Below are positions 1,058-7,848 of a stretch of 64,000 bases of DNA, piece by piece. Every line of letters starts with the position of its first letter. Position 1 is the stretch's first letter. Origin of the DNA: Pseudomonadota bacterium (GTDB lineage Bacteria > Pseudomonadota > Gammaproteobacteria > Burkholderiales > JACQAP01); NCBI GenBank assembly GCA_038040175.1, contig JBBPIT010000006.1:19991-83990 (forward strand). Reading direction: 5' to 3'. Both the position numbers and the translations under genes were made by a program. A model generated the notes under the pieces. The model ran no database searches. It was not told where the DNA came from and worked only from the letters and a program-made list of their open reading frames with translations.

Positions 1058-1090
1058 CCTCAGGAAACCTCAGGGTCAGACTCGATTTAT
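1058..1090. repeat. left arm of imperfect inverted repeat bracketing the TumE/TumA-like cassette
   Basis: Its reverse complement ATAAATCGAGTC..~10 nt..TTTCCTGAG recurs at 1839-1868, as a 12-nt and a 9-nt perfect block. Confidence 0.6.
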
Positions 1091-1098
1091 CTGCCCCA

Positions 1099-1473
1099 TT
1101 AAGCCACGAGCGCTTCAAGTTTGATCGCTTTAGCGCGGGCGCGCACTTCTTTCATCCGTCCGTGACCGGGATGGGTTTTTTCGGTAACGGTAACCAGGCC
1201 GGCTTTACCGAGCGCCGCAACGTCGCGCGTGACCGCGCTGCGGTCGCGCTTCATCTTCTGCGCGATCGATGCGATCGATCCGGGTTTTTGCTTGATGACC
1301 CTGAACAATGCCAGCCGCGCCGGGGTCAAGACGGAGAGCATATCCGCCGGATCTTCGAAACTGATTACTAAGCTTTCCGGAATGGGCTTGCTGGCATCGG
1401 CGAGCCGTGCCAGCTTGCGCGCCCGGCCAAGGAAGTCATCGAGTCTTTCAATCTTCACCGAAGCTTGCTTCAT
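1099..1473 (-). CDS. winged-HTH (MarR-like) DNA-binding protein, TumA/HVO_A0114-like putative antitoxin
   Basis: 124 aa. LTPARLALFRVIKQKPGSIASIAQKMKRDRSAVTRDVAALGKAGLV is a wHTH segment. Its ATG overlaps the stop of the upstream ORF (ATGA). Confidence 0.72.
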   Translation of the reverse strand: MKQASVKIERLDDFLGRARKLARLADASKPIPESLVISFEDPADMLSVLTPARLALFRVIKQKPGSIASIAQKMKRDRSAVTRDVAALGKAGLVTVTEKTHPGHGRMKEVRARAKAIKLEALVA

Positions 1474-1781
1474 AAGGAACCTCGTTTTAGCAGTTGATGC
1501 AACTCACCCTCGAACAGAGCTTCGATTTCCTCGAAGCTCTCAAACGCGATCTCGGTCACAGTCCCGAGGTAATGCCGGTGATGGCGGCCATGCTGGCTGT
1601 CGTAACCTAGCACTCGCCCGTTGTCCCCGACAAAGATCGAATGATTGATGTATGCCAGGTTGTACCGAACGACATTCCCCGCTTTGTCCACCCACGTTTC
1701 GACCCGGACCTTGCCATTTCCACGGCGGGCGGAGATTGCGTGAACCTCATCGACCACCTTTTTCAGTCGCGGAGCAGGCAT
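1470..1781 (-). CDS. TumE-like (DUF6516-type) putative toxin
   Basis: 103 aa. The His-rich core GYDSQHGRHHRHYLG is recalled as typical of TumE-family proteins. It is 4-nt overlapped with the downstream HTH gene. Confidence 0.68.
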   Translation of the reverse strand: MPAPRLKKVVDEVHAISARRGNGKVRVETWVDKAGNVVRYNLAYINHSIFVGDNGRVLGYDSQHGRHHRHYLGTVTEIAFESFEEIEALFEGELHQLLKRGSL

Positions 1782-1838
1782 GACGGATTATATCACCCCT
1801 GATCGTGGAGTGGGCGCGCAGCCTGTGCGATTAAAGCA

Positions 1839-1868
1839 ATAAATCGAGTCAGTGTAACTTTTCCTGAG
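1839..1868. repeat. right arm of inverted repeat bracketing the TumE/TumA-like cassette
   Basis: ATAAATCGAGTC (1839-1850) and TTTCCTGAG (1860-1868) are reverse complements of 1079-1090 and 1059-1067. Confidence 0.6.
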
Positions 1869-1979
1869 TTTAGATTCCCGCTTTGCGGGATGAAGCTGAG
1901 CATGCGTGCCGACCTCGCTTGGGCCGGCGTGCAACGTCGTCATACCGCTTGCTCAGCGCGAAGTGCGGATAGTGGGGAG

Positions 1980-2127
1980 CGGAGCCTTAGTTCGCCCAAT
2001 TTTGTCAGGCGCCGATTTGTGAATAGAATCGGTATAAAGCCGCATGGGGACTGGCTATGCGGGCGTTTATGCTGTGCGACTATGGCCTGTTCCCGATTGT
2101 TCTTCGAGCCTGGCCGCTTTGATTTCC
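1980..2127 (+). repeat. copy 1 of ~145-bp direct repeat flanking the RHH cassette
   Basis: Aligns with 2846-2988 at ~85 % identity by manual alignment, with two small indels. Reading frames are not conserved between copies. It contains the hairpin CCGCAT-N11-ATGCGG at 2040-2062. Confidence 0.8.
2002..2029 (+). promoter_or_regulatory. sigma70-like promoter candidate inside repeat copy 1
   Basis: TTGTCA (2002-2007), a 16-nt spacer, then TAGAAT (2024-2029), oriented toward the RHH gene. Confidence 0.35.
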
Positions 2128-2281
2128 GTGGTGGACGATCTCCGTCACCCCTTTTCCAGACATCGCCTGGAGAGCCGCATTTACGAGGGTCGGATATAAT
2201 TTTTATGACCAACAGTCATCGTATTGGAAAGCTCTTTTCGTTTCTGGCGCATTCTGGTGCAAGCTGGTGTATTCTGATTCC

Positions 2282-2539
2282 ATGTCGATCGCCGAAAAGC
2301 TGGTCCGTCAGAGCGTAAGCCTCCCGGCACGCGTCGCCCGTCAAGTGAAATCCCTGGCGAAGACCAGCAACACGAGCGCCAACCGCATCATTGTTGATCT
2401 CATCGAGTCCGGTCTCGAAGCCCGGGAGCAGGAAAGGAAACGCTTCTTCGAGCTGGCCGAGCGCCTGGCGCATTCCCGCGATGCGGAAGATCAGCAACGT
2501 CTCAAGGCAGAGCTGGCCCGCATGACCTTTGGCGAGTAA
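2282..2539 (+). CDS. ribbon-helix-helix (CopG/Arc-like) putative antitoxin
   Basis: SVSLPARVARQVKSLAKTSNTSANRIIVDLIESGL fits the RHH beta-strand/helix pattern. An alternative GTG start lies at 2267. The stop TAA overlaps the next ATG (TAATG). Confidence 0.7.
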   Translation: MSIAEKLVRQSVSLPARVARQVKSLAKTSNTSANRIIVDLIESGLEAREQERKRFFELAERLAHSRDAEDQQRLKAELARMTFGE

Positions 2540-2781
2540 TGCCCAGGATCCAGTGGACCGGACTGCCTCCCGCGCTCCGCGACCATCTGTTTGACCGGCT
2601 GCGCGAACGCAAGATCACCGCGGAAGACCTTTACCAGCTCAAAACGTGGCGAGAATCCGATCCCGATGCCCCCGACGGGCTCTGGTACAAGGACTTCGGC
2701 TCGTTCAAAATCTGTGGTGAAGGAAAATACCCGAAGACCTTCTTGCTCGCGGGCCAACCTGCCAAAGGTCAGCCGCTCTGA
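2539..2781 (+). CDS. hypothetical 80-aa protein, translationally coupled to the RHH gene (candidate toxin/effector)
   Basis: ORF with start overlapping the upstream stop. The sequence (KTWRESDPDAPDGLWYKDFGSFKICGEGKYPKTF) matches no family I recognise. Confidence 0.55.
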   Translation: MPRIQWTGLPPALRDHLFDRLRERKITAEDLYQLKTWRESDPDAPDGLWYKDFGSFKICGEGKYPKTFLLAGQPAKGQPL

Positions 2782-2845
2782 GGGCTCACTTCGCGTCATC
2801 CGGTAGAAAGCGCAGCGACATATTCGCCGGTTGGCGGTGCGGGGT

Positions 2846-2988
2846 CGGAGCCTGAGTTCGCCCAATCTTTTCAGGCGCTAATTTTGTGAATTGAATCGCC
2901 GGAAAGCCGCATGGGGATTGGCTTTGCGGGCGATTATGCTGTGCAACTATAATCAGTTCCCGATTGTCCTTCGAGCCCCTTTGATTTT
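2846..2988 (+). repeat. copy 2 of ~145-bp direct repeat flanking the RHH cassette
   Basis: Aligns with 1980-2127. It keeps the hairpin (2907-2929) and a weaker TTTTCA-17-TTGAAT motif (2868-2896) pointing into the 3' end of the convergent 3012-4277 gene. Confidence 0.8.
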
Positions 2989-3011
2989 TCTCTTATGGGT
3001 TAGCCGGCTCT

Positions 3012-4277
3012 CTATTTTGTCACCAGACCCTCGATCCACCTGTCGAGCTCGTGCGGAGACGACTTCCAAAGGCTGCGACGCCGTAGCAGCCTAAGCAGGA
3101 CTGTCTTCGTCAGCCACCGGAGCCGTCCCAAGTCTTCGTCAGTCACTTCATACGAACCACTGTGCACGATCTTCGACCGAACGCTGTAAAGGTCCGCAAC
3201 CGACTTCGTTACCTCTGCGCGCCGCTCGCGGCTTCGGCCCAGTAGTCGGGCGACCCGCAAACTCAGTCGATATGTAATTTCCTGGTTGCGCACAGGGAGT
3301 GCGGCGGCCTCAAGAGCGATAGCGAACAACAAGAAGCTTTGCTCGCGCTTTGGCTCCACGCTTGCCCGGCCAGCCCATCGGAACGAGGTGAGCAGCACCT
3401 CACCGGCGGTCTTCGGTGTGGCTATTCTCGAGAGAGCACTCAAGGCCAGCAGCTGTCGAAGAACACGCGGGTCCTTTCGAAGGTTTTCAAGAGAGAACGG
3501 CGCGATGGGTCCAACCTTTGCGTGAGACAACAACACTTGTCCCTCAGATGACACGATGGCCGCTATTTCACGCGCTCTGGCACCCTCAGCGGGCAGGTAT
3601 AGCCACCCGTGGTTGTAGGGAATCAAGTCTTCAAAGAAATTGACGCTATCAACGGCGGCCCTCGTGGCGACCCGCGCCCGGACCATTGCCGAGTCGAAGT
3701 CACGGGCCTTGACCTCAACGACGGCGCACGGATTACCCCAGAGCTCGCTTTCCTTCATGTCGCTCACATCGCTCCGGAATGCGTTGAACTCGGCGCCCGT
3801 TCCAATGGGCTTCAGGAGCTGCCGTAGGTGTGACTGTCCGAATCTCACAAAGCGTATACCGCCGAAACTGAAAGGGAGATACTTTGGAGCGAACCCGTGG
3901 ACAGGCACAAAACACCGGTACGACAGCGGTGGTGAGCACAGCCGCTTGTGCAGATCGACGAGAGCCTGATTCACTCGCTCGTCAAAGGGCTTCTCCCTCT
4001 TGCGCCGAATGTCTAACGAATGAAATAGCGAGTCCTGAAGGTATTGTTCGACGGATCGCCTCGACAGGTCTCCTGTCGTCGAGAAATCATCGACAAGCCG
4101 CCCAACAGTGGCCGTATAGGCAACGAGATCGGCTTCATCGAGGAAGAGCGAACCCTCGTCGTGTCGCGAAATCCTGAAACCGCTGTGGCCATCTGGGATT
4201 CCCGCTGAGAGGTTCTTGTGAATGCTTCTGATGAAGTCACCAACGTACGCTAGCGTCTTTAGTGATTTCGCTTTCAT
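3012..4277 (-). CDS. HEPN-domain protein (ApeA-like C-terminal Rx4H motif) with unassigned N-terminal ~290 aa
   Basis: 421 aa. The C-terminus has FLLFAIALEAAALP ... ADLYSVRSKIVHSG, giving R367-x4-H372 at nt 3162-3179. It lies 46 nt downstream of the methyltransferase gene on the same strand. Confidence 0.6.
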   Translation of the reverse strand: MKAKSLKTLAYVGDFIRSIHKNLSAGIPDGHSGFRISRHDEGSLFLDEADLVAYTATVGRLVDDFSTTGDLSRRSVEQYLQDSLFHSLDIRRKREKPFDERVNQALVDLHKRLCSPPLSYRCFVPVHGFAPKYLPFSFGGIRFVRFGQSHLRQLLKPIGTGAEFNAFRSDVSDMKESELWGNPCAVVEVKARDFDSAMVRARVATRAAVDSVNFFEDLIPYNHGWLYLPAEGARAREIAAIVSSEGQVLLSHAKVGPIAPFSLENLRKDPRVLRQLLALSALSRIATPKTAGEVLLTSFRWAGRASVEPKREQSFLLFAIALEAAALPVRNQEITYRLSLRVARLLGRSRERRAEVTKSVADLYSVRSKIVHSGSYEVTDEDLGRLRWLTKTVLLRLLRRRSLWKSSPHELDRWIEGLVTK

Positions 4278-4323: not shown

Positions 4324-7300
4324 TTACACTATGACCGCAAACCCGTCCTTTCTTCTGCGCACGCGGCCCACAGCTACCAGCGTGTCGATGATCTGCGGCA
4401 GGCGCTTTTTCCACGGACCGCGACCGGTGAAGTGCGCCGCGATGGCGTCGTCGGCCAGCGGTGCGCGTGCCGCAGTCAGTACTTCGGCTACCGCTTTGAC
4501 CTGCGCGGGCAGCGTGGCCGGCCACGGGCGGCGCTCGCCGGGTTTGGCGGCAACGGCAGCTTCTTCACCGGTGTCGATCTCAAGCTGCTCGGCCGCCCGC
4601 GTTTGCGGCTGGCCCGACGCCGGAATCTGGAACTCGGGCCTCAGCCAACGGATCAGGCCGCGTTGTTCCTCTGCCGCGCGCTCCGCGTTGAGCGCGACGA
4701 GCCGTTCGAGCAGCGCATCATCCAAGGCGCGTTTCGCGTCATCACGCGACACGGACTTTGCTCCCTCCTTCGCCGATGCGGGGGAGGGCCGGGGTGGGGG
4801 CGCGTTGCCATTCACCACTTCCAGCAGCGCCGCGAGATCGCTCCATCCATAGGCGTCGAGTACCGCGCGGTCGAGTTCGTCGTGTAGCGTCTTGAGCACC
4901 GCGACCAGCCCGTGTTCGTGGATGACTTTCTCTTTCGCATTGAGCGCTTCGCCACTCTTCAGTTTTTCGAGCACGTTGTACATGCCGGTCAACGTGAGAT
5001 CGGCGTGCTGCGCCTGCTGGCGCTTCCGGTGGGCATCGAGTTGTTCGGCGAGGTCGCGGATGCGGGTCTTAAGCTCGGCATTGGTGTCAGGGAATGGAAA
5101 AGTTTCAAAGCACTTTGTTTTGACATAAACCGGGTCGTTTCCAACTCCGAGCCAACTACCAGCGGCAAGCGCCCACATGACGTGTGGGGTGCTCGAAAGC
5201 ACGCCCAGCTCGTACGCATCACTTAGCGCAATAGCAACGAGCTTGTTGTCCGGCAGGATCGACGTTTCGAGAAACTGAAAGGTTCGATGTTTCGCGGTCT
5301 CGGCTGTAGCAATGTAACGGGACAGCCCAACAAGCTGTTTGCGCAGCTTGGGATTGGTCTCGCCGAACAGCCACCAATTTCTTCGACGCACCTCCCGGTT
5401 GTTTTGATCGCGCTCCGGCTTGACCCGCTCGAGCACTCGCTGAAAGACCGCCGGAAAGCGTTCGCGCACCTGCTCTGCATTCAGCCCAAATAAATCTATC
5501 ACCATCACGCCGCGTGGCCTATCGGTCAAGTCACGGCCGTTGCGATAAGGACGAACGTGCCGCTCAATCCCAGCCACGCTACCTAGGCCAAGCGCTGCGG
5601 CTTCTTCTTGCGTAACGATGAAGCCTGCACCGAAGAGTTGCACTCCGCGATTGCTGAGGTCGCGATTGCCTTCAAGCTGCGCCGCGCCTACAACGTTTGC
5701 GCCGGTAGTCAGATCGGCGTGTATCACGCCCTGCTTGGCCACCAGCGTAACGTCGATCGCGCCATCACCAACAGGTGTTTCCGCCGCAGAGGTGAGCAGC
5801 GCACCCGCGCCGGTTTGCAGCGTGCCGACCGTCATCGCGATCCTAACCGCCGCGCCGTCGCTACTATCGACCCACGGATGATCGGGAATCGCGAAAGCGA
5901 GTGACAGCGGAGGTTTTCCTCCCAGGTGCCGTTCCAATACGCGCCGGTTGAACGTTTGCCGCAGGCTATTCGTTGTGATCAGACCGAAGCGACGCAGTGT
6001 GCCAGCGCGAATACGATCAGCGGCATGGTTCCACCAATACATGACGAAGTCCGCGGACTCCGGGACCTCGGGCCAAGTTTTGCGCAGCGATTCGGTGTAA
6101 CCATCTCCCAGCGCAGCACGCATAGAAGCCGCACCGATAAACGGCGGGTTCCCGATTACGAAATCCGCCGTCGGCCACTCCGACTTACGCGGATTGACGT
6201 ACTTCTCCACCGGCACGCGCGCTGCATCATCGGGCACGTCCTCTCCCGTGACAGGGTGCTTCTTCGTCGTTTTTCCGTCCCAGCGCGTGATTGGAATGCC
6301 CCGCTCATTAGTCACGTATTCCATGCGGTCGTAAGCGAGAACGGCGTCGCGGCATTCGATGTTGTGAAAATCTTTCAGCACCGGCTGCGGCGGCATGATA
6401 TGGCCACGCGTACGGAAGTGCCACTGCAGGTAGCCGATCCACAGCACCATCTCGGCAATTTCGGCCGCGCGCGGGTTGAGTTCGATGCCGAGCAACTGAT
6501 GCGGATCGACCGATACACCCTGCAGATCAAGTCGGCCTCGCGTGTCGCCGAGTTCGTCGAGCTGGTTCAGTACCTCGCCTTCGAGCCGCTTCATGTGTTC
6601 GAGCGTCACGTACAGAAAGTTGCCCGAGCCGCACGCCGGGTCGAGCACACGTACCTCGCACAGGTGCTTGAGAAAGTCCCGCACCTGTTGCTGGGCCTCG
6701 TTCAGCTTGCCCTCGCCGGCCAGCACGAGTGCAGCGGCTTGGGCAATCTTCCAGTCCTCGCGCAGCGGTTCGACGATGGTCGGCAGGACCAGCCGCTCGA
6801 CATACGCGCGCGGAGTGTAGTGCGCACCGAGCGCATGGCGCTCGGTGGGATCAAGCGCGCGTTCGAGCAGCGTGCCGAAAATGGCGGGCTCGACCTCGCG
6901 CCAGTTGGCACGCGCTGCCACCAGCAGCAGGTCGATCTGATCACGGCTTAGCGGCAGCACCTGCGGGTTCTTGAACAGCTTGCCGTTGAACTTCAAAATA
7001 TCGGCACGAACGGCAGCGGAGAATTCACCGCGATCCATCGCGCGCCAGACTTCGCCCACCAGCGGTATGAACTGCTCGGGCTTGTCCTTCAGGCTTTCGA
7101 GCAGATCGACGAACGCGCGTTTGGGCAGCAGGCCGACGTCCTCGGCGAACATCGAAAACAGACAGCGGCTCAGAAAGCCCGCGACGACCTCGGGTGCGTG
7201 CCCGGCCGCTTCGAGCACGCGGGCCACTTCGGCCAGCCGCTCGGCCACGTCGCGCGTGACCTTGGCGGATAGTCGCGTCGGGTCCAGCGACAGCGGATCA

Positions 7301-7848
7301 AGCCACACCGCGCGCAGCCGCTGGCGGGTGGCGTCATCGCGCAGGTCGGCAAGCTGGATGCGATGCGAGCGCGGGTCGGGAAACGGAGTGTAGGTTGCGC
7401 CGGAGCGCGTGAACTCGGCGTACAGCTCGATCACGTTGCCGACATCCACCACCAGCAGGAACGGCGGGCGGCCTTCCGCGGCCGACAGCGCGCGGGCATA
7501 TTGCTCGGCCTGGCCACGGGCGCGCAGCAGCGCATCGTCGAAACCCTTGCCCCCGGCCTGTTTGACCTTCTTTGCTTCGAGCACGAACGTCGCGCGGCGG
7601 TAGCAGTCGATGAAACCGGGCGACTCGGTGCCGTCACCGTGGCGGAAAGTAATGCGGCGCTCGAACACATAAGCGTTGTCTCGCGTGTCCTCGCGGGCCG
7701 GGTCCGGCGTGGGCAGTTCGAGCAGCGTGCACAACTCATGGACGAAAAGCTGATAGTTCGCACGCTCCGAGCCGCTGGCGGATTGCCAGCGGGTGATGAA
7801 CTTTTCTACGGCATTGTCGGAACGGATAGGAAAACTCATCCGCCCCAC
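4324..7848 (-). CDS. single-chain type IIL/IIG (MmeI-like, YeeA-like) restriction-modification enzyme / N6-adenine DNA methyltransferase
   Basis: 1174 aa. It has an N-terminal D81-x9-E91-x-K93 ([16 protein letters not shown]), SAM motif [14 protein letters not shown] and motif [11 protein letters not shown]. The track start at 7848 is GTG, and ATG at 7839 is equally plausible. Confidence 0.82.

What the first reader, a model, noticed from the sequence alone, without database searches (positions are those of the whole stretch)
1980..2988. RHH antitoxin-like gene coupled to an unassigned 80-aa ORF, the pair bracketed by ~145-bp direct repeats with a promoter-like motif and a conserved hairpin
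Seen: 2282-2539 encodes an RHH/CopG-like protein. Its TAA overlaps the ATG of 2539-2781 (TAATG). That second ORF is an 80-aa protein (KTWRESDPDAPDGLWYKDFGSFKICGEGKYPKTFLL) that I cannot place in any toxin family. One ~145-bp sequence occurs twice in direct orientation, at 1980-2127 and 2846-2988. The copies are ~85 % identical by manual alignment, and indels break any shared reading frame, so the sequence is non-coding. Copy 1 carries TTGTCA-16-TAGAAT aimed at the RHH gene. Both copies keep a hairpin (2040-2062 and 2907-2929). Copy 2 carries a weaker TTTTCA-17-TTGAAT aimed into the 3' end of the convergent HEPN gene, so an antisense transcript over that gene is conceivable. Inference: this may be a new type II TA-like cassette mobilised or duplicated through the repeats. 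Alternatively the repeats are paralogous small-RNA/5'-UTR modules.
Basis: partly seen in the sequence, partly recalled or inferred. Interest (0 to 1): 0.6.

Follow-up and report, generated by a model that had tools for sequence, protein, structure and literature searches.

The report
Uncatalogued toxin-antitoxin-like pair between island repeats
A small DNA-binding gene and an 80-residue partner form a widespread but unnamed toxin-antitoxin-like module, while the 150-base repeats around it are a local spacer of a mosaic defence island, not part of the module.

Summary
Two direct copies of a ~150-nt non-coding segment ("R": 1975-2127 and 2841-2988, 85 % identical) bracket a translationally coupled gene pair.

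The pair is real. The 80-aa protein belongs to a family of more than 900 clusters (50 % identity). In all 15 loci inspected it follows a small partner gene. The module sits in unrelated contexts in several phyla and is very patchy (2 of 301 genomes of the order). It matches no Pfam, NCBIfam, PADLOC, PHROG or PDB entry, although its alpha2-beta3 model is confident. A homologous domain heads a jumbo-phage polyvalent protein. The scan had already noted this pair in at least six other genomes.

The repeats do not belong to the module. Elsewhere, DNA similarity covers only 2245-2800. R has exactly two copies in this genome and none in other species representatives searched. It occurs once per fetched stretch in 17 of 18 related metagenome contigs (L031 adds a 34-nt partial copy), between variable cassettes. 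Its right end is a copy of the genome's REP family, which has its own RAYT transposase. The window joins two units found separately in relatives: [103-aa/wHTH pair-A-R] and [RHH/80-aa-R].

R's promoter-like motif exists, but the RHH gene has its own conserved operator and promoter next to its ATG. No RNA structure or expression evidence was obtainable.

The parts
1073..1092 (+). REP-family copy (GGGTCAGACTCGATTTATC) beside the 3' end of the wHTH gene. Together with a weak inverted copy at 1839-1850 it brackets the 103-aa/wHTH pair.
   Evidence: A REP profile built only from copies outside the island gives E = 2.3e-5 here and E = 0.47 for 1839-1850. The family is defined by copies flanking the RAYT gene on contig C41.
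1829..1974 (.). Module 'A': a second conserved non-coding island segment directly left of R copy 1. It is single-copy in this genome.
   Evidence: Shared with L032, L033, L040, L042 and L048. It occurs twice in L042 and L048, where it flanks other cassettes. nhmmer finds one copy in the genome.
1975..2127 (.). R copy 1: a non-coding island segment.
   Evidence: It is colinear with metagenome contig L033 over window 1068-2125 at 94 %.
2002..2029 (+). Sigma-70-like motif TTGTCA-16-TAGAAT inside R copy 1.
   Evidence: The only hit of the consensus scan in 1750-3050, matching 10 of 12 positions. It is only partly conserved among R copies (TTTTCA, TTTCCA; CAGAAT, CAGAAC, TAGGAT) and is missing in L045 and L046.
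2039..2064 (.). Short hairpin GCCGCAT...ATGCGGGC in copy 1 (the copy 2 equivalent is at 2906-2931).
   Evidence: Read from the sequence. There is no covariation, and the fold is not better than shuffles.
2104..2122 (-). REP-family copy that forms the right end of R copy 1 (TTCGAGCCTGGCCGCTTTGATTT). This is the sharp right boundary of R in all relatives.
   Evidence: REP profile E = 0.005 in the window. The same position is hit in L031 and L036 (E about 0.001) and in L033 (E = 0.06). At least 10 different sequences follow this point in different contigs.
2245..2281 (+). The cassette's own control region. It holds three 10-nt-phased boxes, TGGCGCATTC TGGTGCAAGC TGGTGTATTC, then 7 nt to the ATG. 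There is no Shine-Dalgarno sequence. It is the likely RHH operator overlapping an extended -10-like element, with a likely leaderless or near-leaderless mRNA.
   Evidence: Conserved in spacing and sequence in L024, L025, L026 and L030, which come from other lineages. Similarity to those loci starts at about 2245.
2282..2539 (+). 85-aa Arc/RHH-like DNA-binding protein with a C-terminal two-helix domain; the putative antitoxin.
   Evidence: PHROG Arc-like repressor E = 1.7e-4. Sources name cluster members as CopG/Arc/MetJ family or DNA-binding protein. The AF2 monomer has low confidence at the N-terminus and pLDDT 80-85 for C-terminal helices 49-83. The C-terminal domain is shared with the 73-aa partner of the second subfamily.
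2539..2781 (+). 80-aa protein of an uncatalogued family; the putative toxin or effector.
   Evidence: More than 4200 clusters at 90 % identity and 924 at 50 % identity. AF2 gives pLDDT 91 and pTM 0.78, with strand-helix-helix-three strands. There is no PDB or BFVD fold match. A homologous N-terminal domain occurs in phage polyvalent protein gp321.
2841..2988 (.). R copy 2, with a weaker motif TTTTCA-17-TTGAAT at 2868-2896 and a 5-6-nt deletion in its terminal REP core.
   Evidence: It is colinear with L034 and L035 over window 2331-2963 at 92 %, so the cassette-R junction is shared with relatives.

Best explanation
Two separate things are superimposed here.

(1) The gene pair. Genes 2282-2539 and 2539-2781 are one copy of a widespread, unnamed, self-contained two-gene module built like a type II toxin-antitoxin system.
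- The upstream protein has an Arc/RHH-type N-terminus. I infer that this part binds three 10-bp-phased TGGYGYA boxes that overlap the promoter of a probably leaderless transcript.
- It also has a C-terminal two-helix domain, which I infer neutralises the partner.
- The partner is an 80-aa alpha2-beta3 protein. Its invariant or nearly invariant His16, Arg20, Arg24 and Lys51 suggest that it acts on a nucleic acid, most likely RNA.

(2) The repeats. The ~150-nt direct repeats are two diverged copies of 'R'. R is a non-coding spacer specific to this lineage's TA/defence island, and it ends in a copy of the genome's REP element.
- In close relatives R is a single-copy junction between interchangeable cassettes.
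- In the window, two units that exist separately in relatives lie head to tail: [103-aa/wHTH pair-A-R] and [RHH/80-aa-R]. That is why the cassette appears bracketed.
- The bracket is therefore a by-product of modular island assembly: recombination or insertion at R/REP, formally resembling 'insertion with long target duplication'. It is neither a transposon end nor part of the TA module.

Shown: conservation, pairing, contexts, repeat copy number, unit colinearity and the REP identity of R's end.
Inferred: toxicity, neutralisation, operator binding, a leaderless mRNA and the recombination route.
For: Pair:
- All 15 places fetched for four homologues (P0013, P0104, P0049; P0274, P0373) show an abutting or overlapping 73-91-aa upstream gene, in unrelated neighbourhoods.
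- The family is large and carries no family annotation.
- It was found in 2 of 301 genomes of the order.
- The partner's C-terminal domain is conserved across subfamilies while the N-terminus differs.
- The phased boxes lie at a fixed distance from the ATG in five loci.
- The AF2 model is confident and has no PDB match.
- The domain is fused to SprT-like, 2H/Acb1-like, ART-PolyVal and GNAT domains in a jumbo-phage polyvalent protein. Conflict-system domains of this kind are shared with TA systems according to PMC5512222.
- In L034 and L035 the RHH gene has lost its promoter and ribbon, and the 80-aa gene carries H16R at a nearly invariant site.

Repeats:
- There are two copies in the genome, by BLAST and by profile.
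- None was found in the 36 other genomes of the genus, or by either pattern scan of the collection of species genomes.
- 18 metagenome contigs each hold one full copy next to different genes.
- Units are colinear with L033 (94 %) and with L034/L035 (92 %).
- R is absent from the module's loci elsewhere.
- The right end of R matches an independent REP profile. The REP family is anchored by a Y1_Tnp (RAYT) gene flanked by inverted REPs.
- The longest identical run between the two copies is 15 nt.
Against: - No functional data exist. Toxicity, neutralisation, DNA binding and transcription are all untested.
- The RHH call rests on weak scores. No Pfam match reaches its cut-off, and the AF2 monomer is poor at the N-terminus.
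- Identity of 80-95 % between phyla is unusually high for a TA toxin.
- No plasmid among 72,556 records carries the gene.
- No contig shows the exact 'empty site', meaning both window flanks around a single R. The order of events is therefore not demonstrated.
- R's conservation among relatives (about 85-90 %) is not clearly above that of neutral DNA at this divergence. The central 26 nt are invariant only because the search pattern required them.
- L031 has a partial R end upstream of another cassette, and R has a very sharp right boundary. Both would also fit a site-specific mechanism.
Confidence: 0.55

Rival explanations
1. R is a small transcription unit: an sRNA or leader module consisting of a promoter, about 100 nt of conserved RNA and a REP at the 3' end. 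The two copies are paralogous sRNA genes. Copy 2 would then give an antisense RNA over the 3' end of the convergent HEPN gene.
For: - The best sigma-70-like site of the region lies in copy 1.
- The roughly 95 nt downstream are the best-conserved part of R, and L045 and L046 keep them even though the promoter part is replaced.
- The element ends at a REP. In E. coli, REPs commonly form mRNA 3' ends (my own knowledge).
Against: - There is no Rfam match at E <= 10.
- Fold z-scores are not significant on either strand.
- RNAalifold gives -13.8 kcal/mol with no covarying pair.
- No terminator-like site lies at the 3' end.
- The -10 hexamer varies (CAGAAC, CAGACT, TAGGAT).
- Copy 1 carries unique changes at positions that are otherwise invariant.
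Confidence: 0.17
2. R, or its terminal REP, is a recombination site of an integron-like or RAYT/REP-dependent cassette-capture system. Each cassette would travel with its own R, as integron cassettes travel with attC.
For: - There are 'cassette + R' units: [RHH/80-aa-R], [VapB/PIN-R] in L031, and [pair-A-R].
- A partial R end lies upstream of the L031 cassette.
- R has one sharp right boundary followed by at least 10 different flanks.
- In L042 a DUF433/DUF5615 cassette sits between two A copies.
- The genome encodes both a RAYT and a complete integron integrase.
- An earlier scan note reports the same cassette family between REP-like elements and ~95-bp direct repeats in another genome.
Against: - R has no attC-type imperfect palindrome and no R''/R' core sites.
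- There are only two copies in the genome.
- The integrase and the RAYT lie on other contigs, with no recombinase near the island.
- R's left boundary is ragged.
- Six module loci in other lineages have no flanking repeats.
Confidence: 0.08
3. The two copies arose in place when the cassette was inserted with a long target duplication (Nobusato/Furuta/Kobayashi type), and they have since diverged to 85 %.
For: - The insert is flanked by direct repeats longer than 30 bp.
- The insert contains no mobility gene.
- The repeat is single-copy in relatives.
These are the criteria set out in PMC2853133.
Against: - The published cases show 93-100 % identity between the two copies, against 85 % here.
- Each copy is as close, or closer, to copies in other strains than to its partner.
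- Copy 2 and the cassette are colinear with L034/L035, which suggests import as a unit.
- No empty-site allele with both window flanks was found.
Confidence: 0.12
4. The gene pair is not a toxin-antitoxin system. It would instead be a two-component regulator, or a DNA-binding protein with a non-toxic accessory or anti-defence partner.
For: - There is no similarity to any known toxin in sequence or fold.
- Conservation across phyla is unusually high.
- It is absent from the plasmids searched.
- In phage polyvalent proteins many domains are counter-defence factors rather than toxins (PMC5512222).
Against: - The architecture, translational coupling, autoregulation-type operator, patchy distribution and location among HipBA, the 103-aa/wHTH pair, the HEPN gene and the R-M genes all fit a TA system.
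- The single natural case of partner truncation coincides with a substitution at a nearly invariant His.
Confidence: 0.25

Closest known systems
Type II toxin-antitoxin modules with RHH antitoxins (for example ParD/ParE, RelB/RelE, CopG-type antitoxins)
   Same: There are two small, translationally coupled genes. The first encodes an Arc/RHH-like DNA binder with a C-terminal partner-binding region. Operator repeats overlap the promoter. The module has a patchy, horizontally spread distribution and lies in a TA/defence island.
   Different: The 80-aa partner matches no RelE/ParE or other toxin family by sequence (Pfam, NCBIfam, PADLOC, PHROGs, PDB profile). It also matches none by Foldseek, where the best PDB E-value is 0.87 and TM is at most 0.31. 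The order of its secondary-structure elements (strand, two helices, three strands) recalls RelE/ParE, but that is only a resemblance. Toxicity is untested.
Insertion with long target duplication (Nobusato et al. 2000; Furuta, Abe and Kobayashi 2010, PMC2853133)
   Same: A small selfish-type gene unit without any mobility gene is flanked by direct repeats of about 150 bp. Related genomes carry that sequence once.
   Different: The repeats are only 85 % identical, against 93-100 % in the published cases. No empty-site allele with both flanks was found. Copy 2 appears to have travelled with the cassette. The published cases concern R-M systems.
REP / REPIN elements with their RAYT (Y1) transposase
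   Same: The last ~20 nt of R belong to the genome's REP family. That family is anchored by a Y1_Tnp gene flanked by inverted REPs. REPs also bracket the neighbouring 103-aa/wHTH pair.
   Different: The 150-nt repeat as a whole is not a REP. It has two copies only, its ~125-nt body is unique, and its 5' part does not match the REP profile.
Integron gene cassettes with attC sites (sedentary chromosomal integrons rich in TA cassettes)
   Same: Small cassettes, often TA modules, are each followed by a similar ~150-nt repeat. The genome does encode an integron integrase, on another contig.
   Different: R has no attC-like palindrome or core sites. There are only two copies. The island is not next to intI.
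Domains of phage and conjugative-element polyvalent proteins (Iyer et al. 2017, PMC5512222)
   Same: A homologue of the 80-aa protein (38 % identity) is the N-terminal domain of a 1362-aa jumbo-phage protein. That protein also has SprT-like, 2H/Acb1-like, ART-PolyVal and GNAT domains.
   Different: Here the domain stands alone and is paired with a dedicated small partner. I could not match it to any named LPD family of polyvalent-protein domains in Pfam.

Membership tests
Type II toxin-antitoxin system | Two adjacent, co-oriented small genes in one operon, usually overlapping | tested here: met
   The genes overlap as TAATG at 2537-2541. The same arrangement is seen in 15 of 15 homologous places.
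Type II toxin-antitoxin system | The antitoxin has a DNA-binding domain and autoregulates through operator repeats | tested here: inconclusive
   PHROG Arc-like repressor gives E = 1.7e-4 and PDB CopG gives E = 0.3-0.4, but no Pfam match reaches its cut-off. Three 10-nt-phased boxes are conserved in five loci. Binding has not been tested.
Type II toxin-antitoxin system | The toxin arrests growth, and the antitoxin neutralises it by direct binding | not testable with these tools
   This needs expression and rescue assays. The only indirect hint is that the partner's C-terminal domain is conserved across subfamilies, together with the L035 decay pattern.
Type II toxin-antitoxin system | Patchy, horizontally transferred distribution | tested here: met
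   It was found in 2 of 301 genomes of the order. Homologues of 80-95 % identity are labelled Thermoanaerobaculia, Vicinamibacteria, Rokubacteria and Betaproteobacteria.
RelE/ParE superfamily toxin | Sequence or fold similarity to RelE/ParE | tested here: not met
   There is no Pfam or NCBIfam hit. A PDB profile search gave no such hit at E <= 10. Foldseek against PDB listed no RelE/ParE among its best matches, with a best E-value of 0.87. The only weak hit is BFVD 'site-specific RNA endonuclease' at E = 0.35.
REP (repetitive extragenic palindromic) element | Many genomic copies of a short element, linked to a RAYT gene flanked by inverted copies | tested here: not met
   R as a whole has 2 copies. 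Only its terminal ~20 nt match the REP profile, at E = 0.005. The RAYT and its flanking REPs are on C41.
Integron cassette / attC | An imperfect palindrome with R''/L''-L'/R' sites (RYYYAAC ... GTTRRRY), in an array next to intI | tested here: not met
   Fold z-scores lie between -0.9 and +0.7. No core sites are seen in the sequence. The intI gene is on contig C19, not beside the island.
Insertion with long target duplication | Direct repeats longer than 30 bp flank an insert that has no mobility gene | tested here: met
   The criteria are taken from PMC2853133.
Insertion with long target duplication | A related genome has one copy of the repeat, joined to both flanks (the empty site) | tested here: inconclusive
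   17 of the 18 related contigs hold R once in the stretch fetched (L031 has an extra 34-nt partial copy). None, however, has both window flanks around that single copy.
Small RNA gene | A promoter, a defined 3' end or terminator, a conserved structure, and expression | tested here: inconclusive
   A promoter-like motif is present. There is no terminator, no significant or covarying structure and no Rfam family.

The most novel reading that the evidence does not exclude
REP-terminated spacers such as R and A are the joints of a recombinase-in-trans cassette-shuffling system: an 'integron without attC'. In it, the genome's RAYT (or another enzyme acting on REP hairpins) would capture and reorder small TA/defence cassettes. 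This would explain the fixed REP boundary, the 'cassette + R' units and the independent report of the same cassette family between REP-like elements and direct repeats in another genome.
Probability: 0.06. Interest if true: 0.8.

Novelty: new variant of a known kind. Interest (0 to 1): 0.45.

Why it matters
- The 80-aa protein heads a very large family: more than 900 clusters at 50 % identity and thousands at 90 %. The family has no name, no domain model and no solved or similar structure.
- Its module nevertheless has every architectural mark of a type II toxin-antitoxin system. Its domain has also been recruited into a jumbo-phage polyvalent 'weapon' protein.
- If the protein is toxic, it would define a new toxin or effector fold shared by bacterial TA modules and phage counter-defence proteins. 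It would also give annotation pipelines a model for thousands of 'hypothetical proteins'.
- The repeat part is more ordinary. It shows how a mosaic defence island is built from units joined at lineage-specific, REP-ended spacers.
- It is also a caution: repeats that bracket a cassette need not belong to that cassette.

Tried and rejected
- Short 28-nt matches to the 'hairpin' part in the same genome and in relatives (L005, L020, L022) lie inside ordinary genes (PntB-like, sulfhydrylase) and are chance. A 35-nt match in G028 (L050) is a separate perfect intergenic palindrome.
- Coding reading of R: rejected because of frame-breaking indels and a stop.
- R as a structured RNA: no Rfam hit, no significant energy, no covariation. 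I did not build a covariance model because the copies are too alike to carry structural signal.
- R's 5' part as a second, inverted REP (which would make R a REPIN): by eye it resembles one, but an independent REP profile does not hit it.
- attC or integron reading: rejected.
- Long direct repeats around the module in other lineages: none in L024, L025, L026, L030, L053 or L057.
- Looking for other assemblies with the same 103-aa protein only returned the same genome at 100 % identity.
- Two pattern scans of the collection of species genomes found no other R.
- Plasmids: no homologue of the 80-aa protein.
- The phage ORF upstream of the polyvalent protein as a partner homologue: a FELAD-like motif only, not significant.
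- The AF2 monomer of the RHH protein was too poor (pLDDT 64) for a fold search.
Full report
**1. What is in the sequence**

The window's left 8 kb is a string of small modules.
- The 3' part of a HipA_C kinase gene (38-1027, +).
- A 103-aa gene overlapping an HVO_A0114-type winged-helix gene (1470-1781 and 1099-1473, both -).
- The pair in question (2282-2539 and 2539-2781, +).
- A 421-aa gene with an Rx4H motif (3012-4277, -).
- A 1174-aa Type IIG restriction-modification enzyme (4324-7848, -).

GC content is 0.53-0.60 here, against 0.63-0.69 further right.

The reported repeat is real.
- Copy 1 lies at about 1975-2127 and copy 2 at about 2841-2988. They are direct and 84-85 % identical, with a 1-nt and a 5-6-nt indel.
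- The two genes overlap as TAATG.
- TTGTCA-16-TAGAAT at 2002-2029 is the only sigma-70-like consensus hit between 1750 and 3050.
- The weaker TTTTCA-17-TTGAAT of copy 2 is at 2868-2896.
- The 'hairpin' is a 5-7-bp stem with an 11-13-nt loop, and copy 2 loses one pair.

**2. The gene pair**

Family size and naming.
- The 80-aa protein has more than 4200 relatives (clusters at 90 % identity) in the word-indexed search. The best 120 are 80-96 % identical. The few that are named carry the labels Thermoanaerobaculia, Vicinamibacteria, Rokubacteria or Betaproteobacteria.
- An exhaustive HMMER pass over representatives at 50 % identity finds 924 clusters at E <= 0.001.
- No member scanned matches a Pfam family meaningfully. 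NCBIfam, PADLOC and PHROGs give nothing.

Pairing and context.
- Contexts were fetched for P0013, P0104 and P0049 (subfamily 1) and for P0274 and P0373 (subfamily 2, 47 % identical).
- All 15 places show an abutting or overlapping upstream gene of 73-91 aa. The neighbours are unrelated: G6PD/GGT, MacB, thiolase, RecD2, a sigma factor.
- In the window's own order only 2 of 301 sampled genomes have the gene.

The upstream partner.
- In subfamily 1 it has the strand-helix-helix pattern of Arc/RHH proteins (KPIRQSVSLPxRVARRVKALA...SANRVVVDLIEAGLE). The scores are modest: PHROG Arc-like repressor E = 1.7e-4 and PDB CopG family E = 0.3-0.4.
- A two-helix C-terminal domain follows (AF2 pLDDT 80-85).
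- The 73-aa partner of subfamily 2 lacks part of the RHH region but keeps that C-terminal domain. This is what one expects of a modular antitoxin whose C-terminus binds the toxin.

The control region.
- Directly upstream of the ATG lie three 10-nt-phased boxes: TGGCGCATTC TGGTGCAAGC TGGTGTATTC (2245-2274).
- Four loci from other lineages keep them at the same distance from the start codon, and none has a Shine-Dalgarno sequence.
- I read this as the RHH operator overlapping an extended -10-like element of a leaderless or nearly leaderless mRNA. That is an inference.

**3. The 80-aa protein itself**

- AlphaFold2, run on a 30-sequence alignment of both subfamilies, gives pLDDT 91 and pTM 0.78. 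Helices span 11-23 and 28-39, strands span 48-52, 56-61 and 64-70, and there are short edge strands.
- Foldseek finds nothing in the PDB (best E = 0.87, TM at most 0.31). In BFVD it finds only weak hits, among them phage 'site-specific RNA endonuclease' entries at E = 0.35.
- Sequence and profile searches of the PDB are empty of relevant hits.
- The order of secondary-structure elements recalls RelE/ParE, but membership was tested and not met.
- Invariant or nearly invariant residues include H16, R20, R24, W37, W49, K51, G60 and G62.
- tblastn against phage records finds one relative. Residues 17-93 of gp321 of the Tunturiibacter jumbo phage Tunturi_5 are 38 % identical (pairwise E = 8e-14). 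gp321 is a 1362-aa protein that also carries SprT-like, 2H/Acb1-like, ART-PolyVal, GNAT and DUF3990-like regions.
- That is the architecture of the 'polyvalent proteins' of Iyer et al. 2017, whose domains are shared with TA and other conflict systems (PMC5512222).
- No plasmid of 72,556 records carries the gene.
- A natural 'experiment' exists in L034 and L035. There the RHH gene has lost its first ~20 codons and its promoter to a DUF2283 fragment, and the 80-aa gene carries H16R and W6G. This is a single case and is only suggestive.

**4. The repeats**

Copy number.
- BLAST and an nhmmer profile find exactly two copies in the 3.78-Mb genome.
- The 36 other genomes of the genus have none.
- Two different patterns find none in the collection of species genomes.

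Copies in relatives.
- One pattern scan of metagenome contigs returned 18 contigs.
- Their shared genes are 84-95 % identical to the window, so they are close relatives.
- 17 of them have one copy of R in the stretch fetched. The exception is L031, which has a 34-nt partial R end upstream of a VapB/PIN cassette.
- The genes on either side differ from contig to contig: MNT and HepT/MNT genes, VapBC, ORF6N genes, a YhcG-like nuclease, DUF433/DUF5615, the Type IIG enzyme.

Boundaries and coding status.
- The right boundary of R is sharp (…TTCGAGCCTGGCCGCTTTGATTT), and at least ten different sequences follow it.
- The left boundary is ragged.
- Frame-breaking indels show that R is non-coding.
- The central 26 nt are invariant only because the search pattern demanded them.

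Relation to the gene pair.
- R is not part of the gene-pair module. Against seven loci from other lineages, DNA similarity covers only window 2245-2800, and six such loci have no long flanking direct repeats.
- Window 1068-2125 (the wHTH/103-aa pair, module A and R copy 1) is colinear with L033 at 94 %.
- Window 2331-2963 (the gene pair and R copy 2) is colinear with L034 and L035 at 92 %.
- So the window places two units that exist separately in relatives head to tail, each ending in R.
- The two copies are no closer to each other (85 %) than to copies in other strains (up to 88-91 %), and they share no identical run longer than 15 nt.

**5. R ends in a REP**

- Short matches to R's last 25 nt on contig C32 led to a repeat family, AAAGGGGCCAGGCTCGATTTAT. 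It has about 16 strict copies.
- Two inverted copies flank a 246-aa gene on C41 whose N-terminal 110 residues match Y1_Tnp (PF01797, E = 6.6e-12). This is the signature of a REP family with its RAYT transposase.
- A profile built only from copies outside the island hits the window in three places:
  - 1073-1092 (E = 2.3e-5);
  - 2104-2122, minus strand (E = 0.005), which is the right end of R copy 1;
  - 1839-1850, weakly.
- The same position is hit in the R copies of L031, L033 and L036.
- Copy 2 has a small deletion in this core.
- The 150-nt repeat as a whole is therefore not a genome-wide REP, but its boundary is one.

**6. Function of R**

- No Rfam family matches.
- Fold energies equal those of shuffles.
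- RNAalifold gives a weak consensus with no covarying pair.
- There is no terminator-like site at the 3' end.
- The promoter-like motif is only partly kept, and L045 and L046 lack it.
- I therefore treat R as an island spacer whose persistence may be historical. I keep an sRNA reading at about 0.17 and a site-specific 'cassette joint' reading at about 0.08.
- The formal pattern, a selfish gene unit between long direct repeats that are single-copy in relatives, matches 'insertion with long target duplication' (PMC2853133). Against that reading, the copies are much more diverged than in the published cases, and no empty-site allele was found.

**7. Verdict**

The pair is a good candidate for a new family of type II TA-like modules. 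The scan has already noted it in at least six other genomes.
- The repeats are a local feature of a mosaic, REP-punctuated defence island. They are not the vehicle of the cassette.

I score interest at 0.45. The protein family is large, unnamed and structurally unmatched, and it has an intriguing link to phage polyvalent proteins. Its architecture, however, is the familiar TA one, all functional steps are inferred, and the repeat story is ordinary.

Noticed in passing
G000 contig C19:2752-3828 (outside the window): A complete integron integrase gene (TIGR02249, 474 bits against a cut-off of 265) has four small opposite-strand ORFs upstream, close to a contig end. A partial second copy lies at C11:67604-68086. 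This probably marks a chromosomal integron. It is unrelated in sequence to R.
   Followed up: partly
G000 contig C41:16235-17031 and C32:36666-38790 (outside the window): A RAYT-type Y1 transposase gene is flanked by inverted REPs (ATTAAAGGGGCCAGGCTCGATT). On C32, a REP hairpin on one side and a tandem array of four REPs plus a hairpin on the other bracket a 1.9-kb two-gene segment.
   Followed up: partly
window 1073-1092 and 1839-1850: REP-family copies in inverted orientation bracket the 103-aa/wHTH (TumE/TumA-like) pair, in the same way that REPs bracket the RAYT gene. In L042 and L048 the same REP sits beside the wHTH gene.
   Followed up: partly
L072 (PP885688.1:261501-265589), Tunturiibacter phage Tunturi_5 gp321: This 1362-aa protein is annotated as 'MutT/NUDIX hydrolase', but Pfam finds SprT-like, 2'-5' RNA ligase/Acb1-like, ART-PolyVal, GNAT and DUF3990 regions. 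Its first ~95 residues are homologous to the 80-aa protein. The 56-aa ORF320 just upstream has a weak FELAD motif like the antitoxin's C-terminus, which is not significant.
   Followed up: partly
L035:2726-3450 and L035:6384-7271: This is a decayed array. An intact VapB-like gene is followed by a PIN gene truncated after its N-terminus, a DUF2283 fragment and a 5'-truncated RHH gene. An IS110-family transposase gene lies 2.5 kb to the right of R. The ORF6N genes there are flanked by their own ~87-nt direct repeats (93 %).
   Followed up: partly
L037, L038, L043, L047 compared with L052 (G000:C6:1-19990): In several relatives the R-bearing island lies between cmk-rpsA on one side and aroA or the Type IIG enzyme on the other. 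In the window's genome it lies between a Liv-type transporter/acyl-CoA ligase cluster plus hipBA on one side and the Type IIG enzyme/icmF on the other. Either the island or its surroundings have moved.
   Followed up: no
L047:5913-6443, L048:9322-10056 compared with window 3012-4277: The slot between R and the Type IIG enzyme holds different genes in different relatives: an ORF6N gene, a 244-aa gene, or the 421-aa HEPN gene.
   Followed up: partly
one search hit list (P0274, P0286, P0303, P0334): JGI names some 80-81-aa members of subfamily 2 as 'RimI-like acetylase' or 'GNAT superfamily'. This cannot be right for an 81-aa protein with no GNAT match. It possibly arose by transfer from fused polyvalent proteins.
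   Followed up: no
L050:1500-1535 (G028:C51): A perfect 13-bp palindrome, CCCGCAAAGCCGC-N7-GCGGCTTTGCGGG, lies in an intergenic region of a congener. It shares 31 of 35 nt with the hairpin part of R. This may be the kind of terminator hairpin from which that part of R derives.
   Followed up: no
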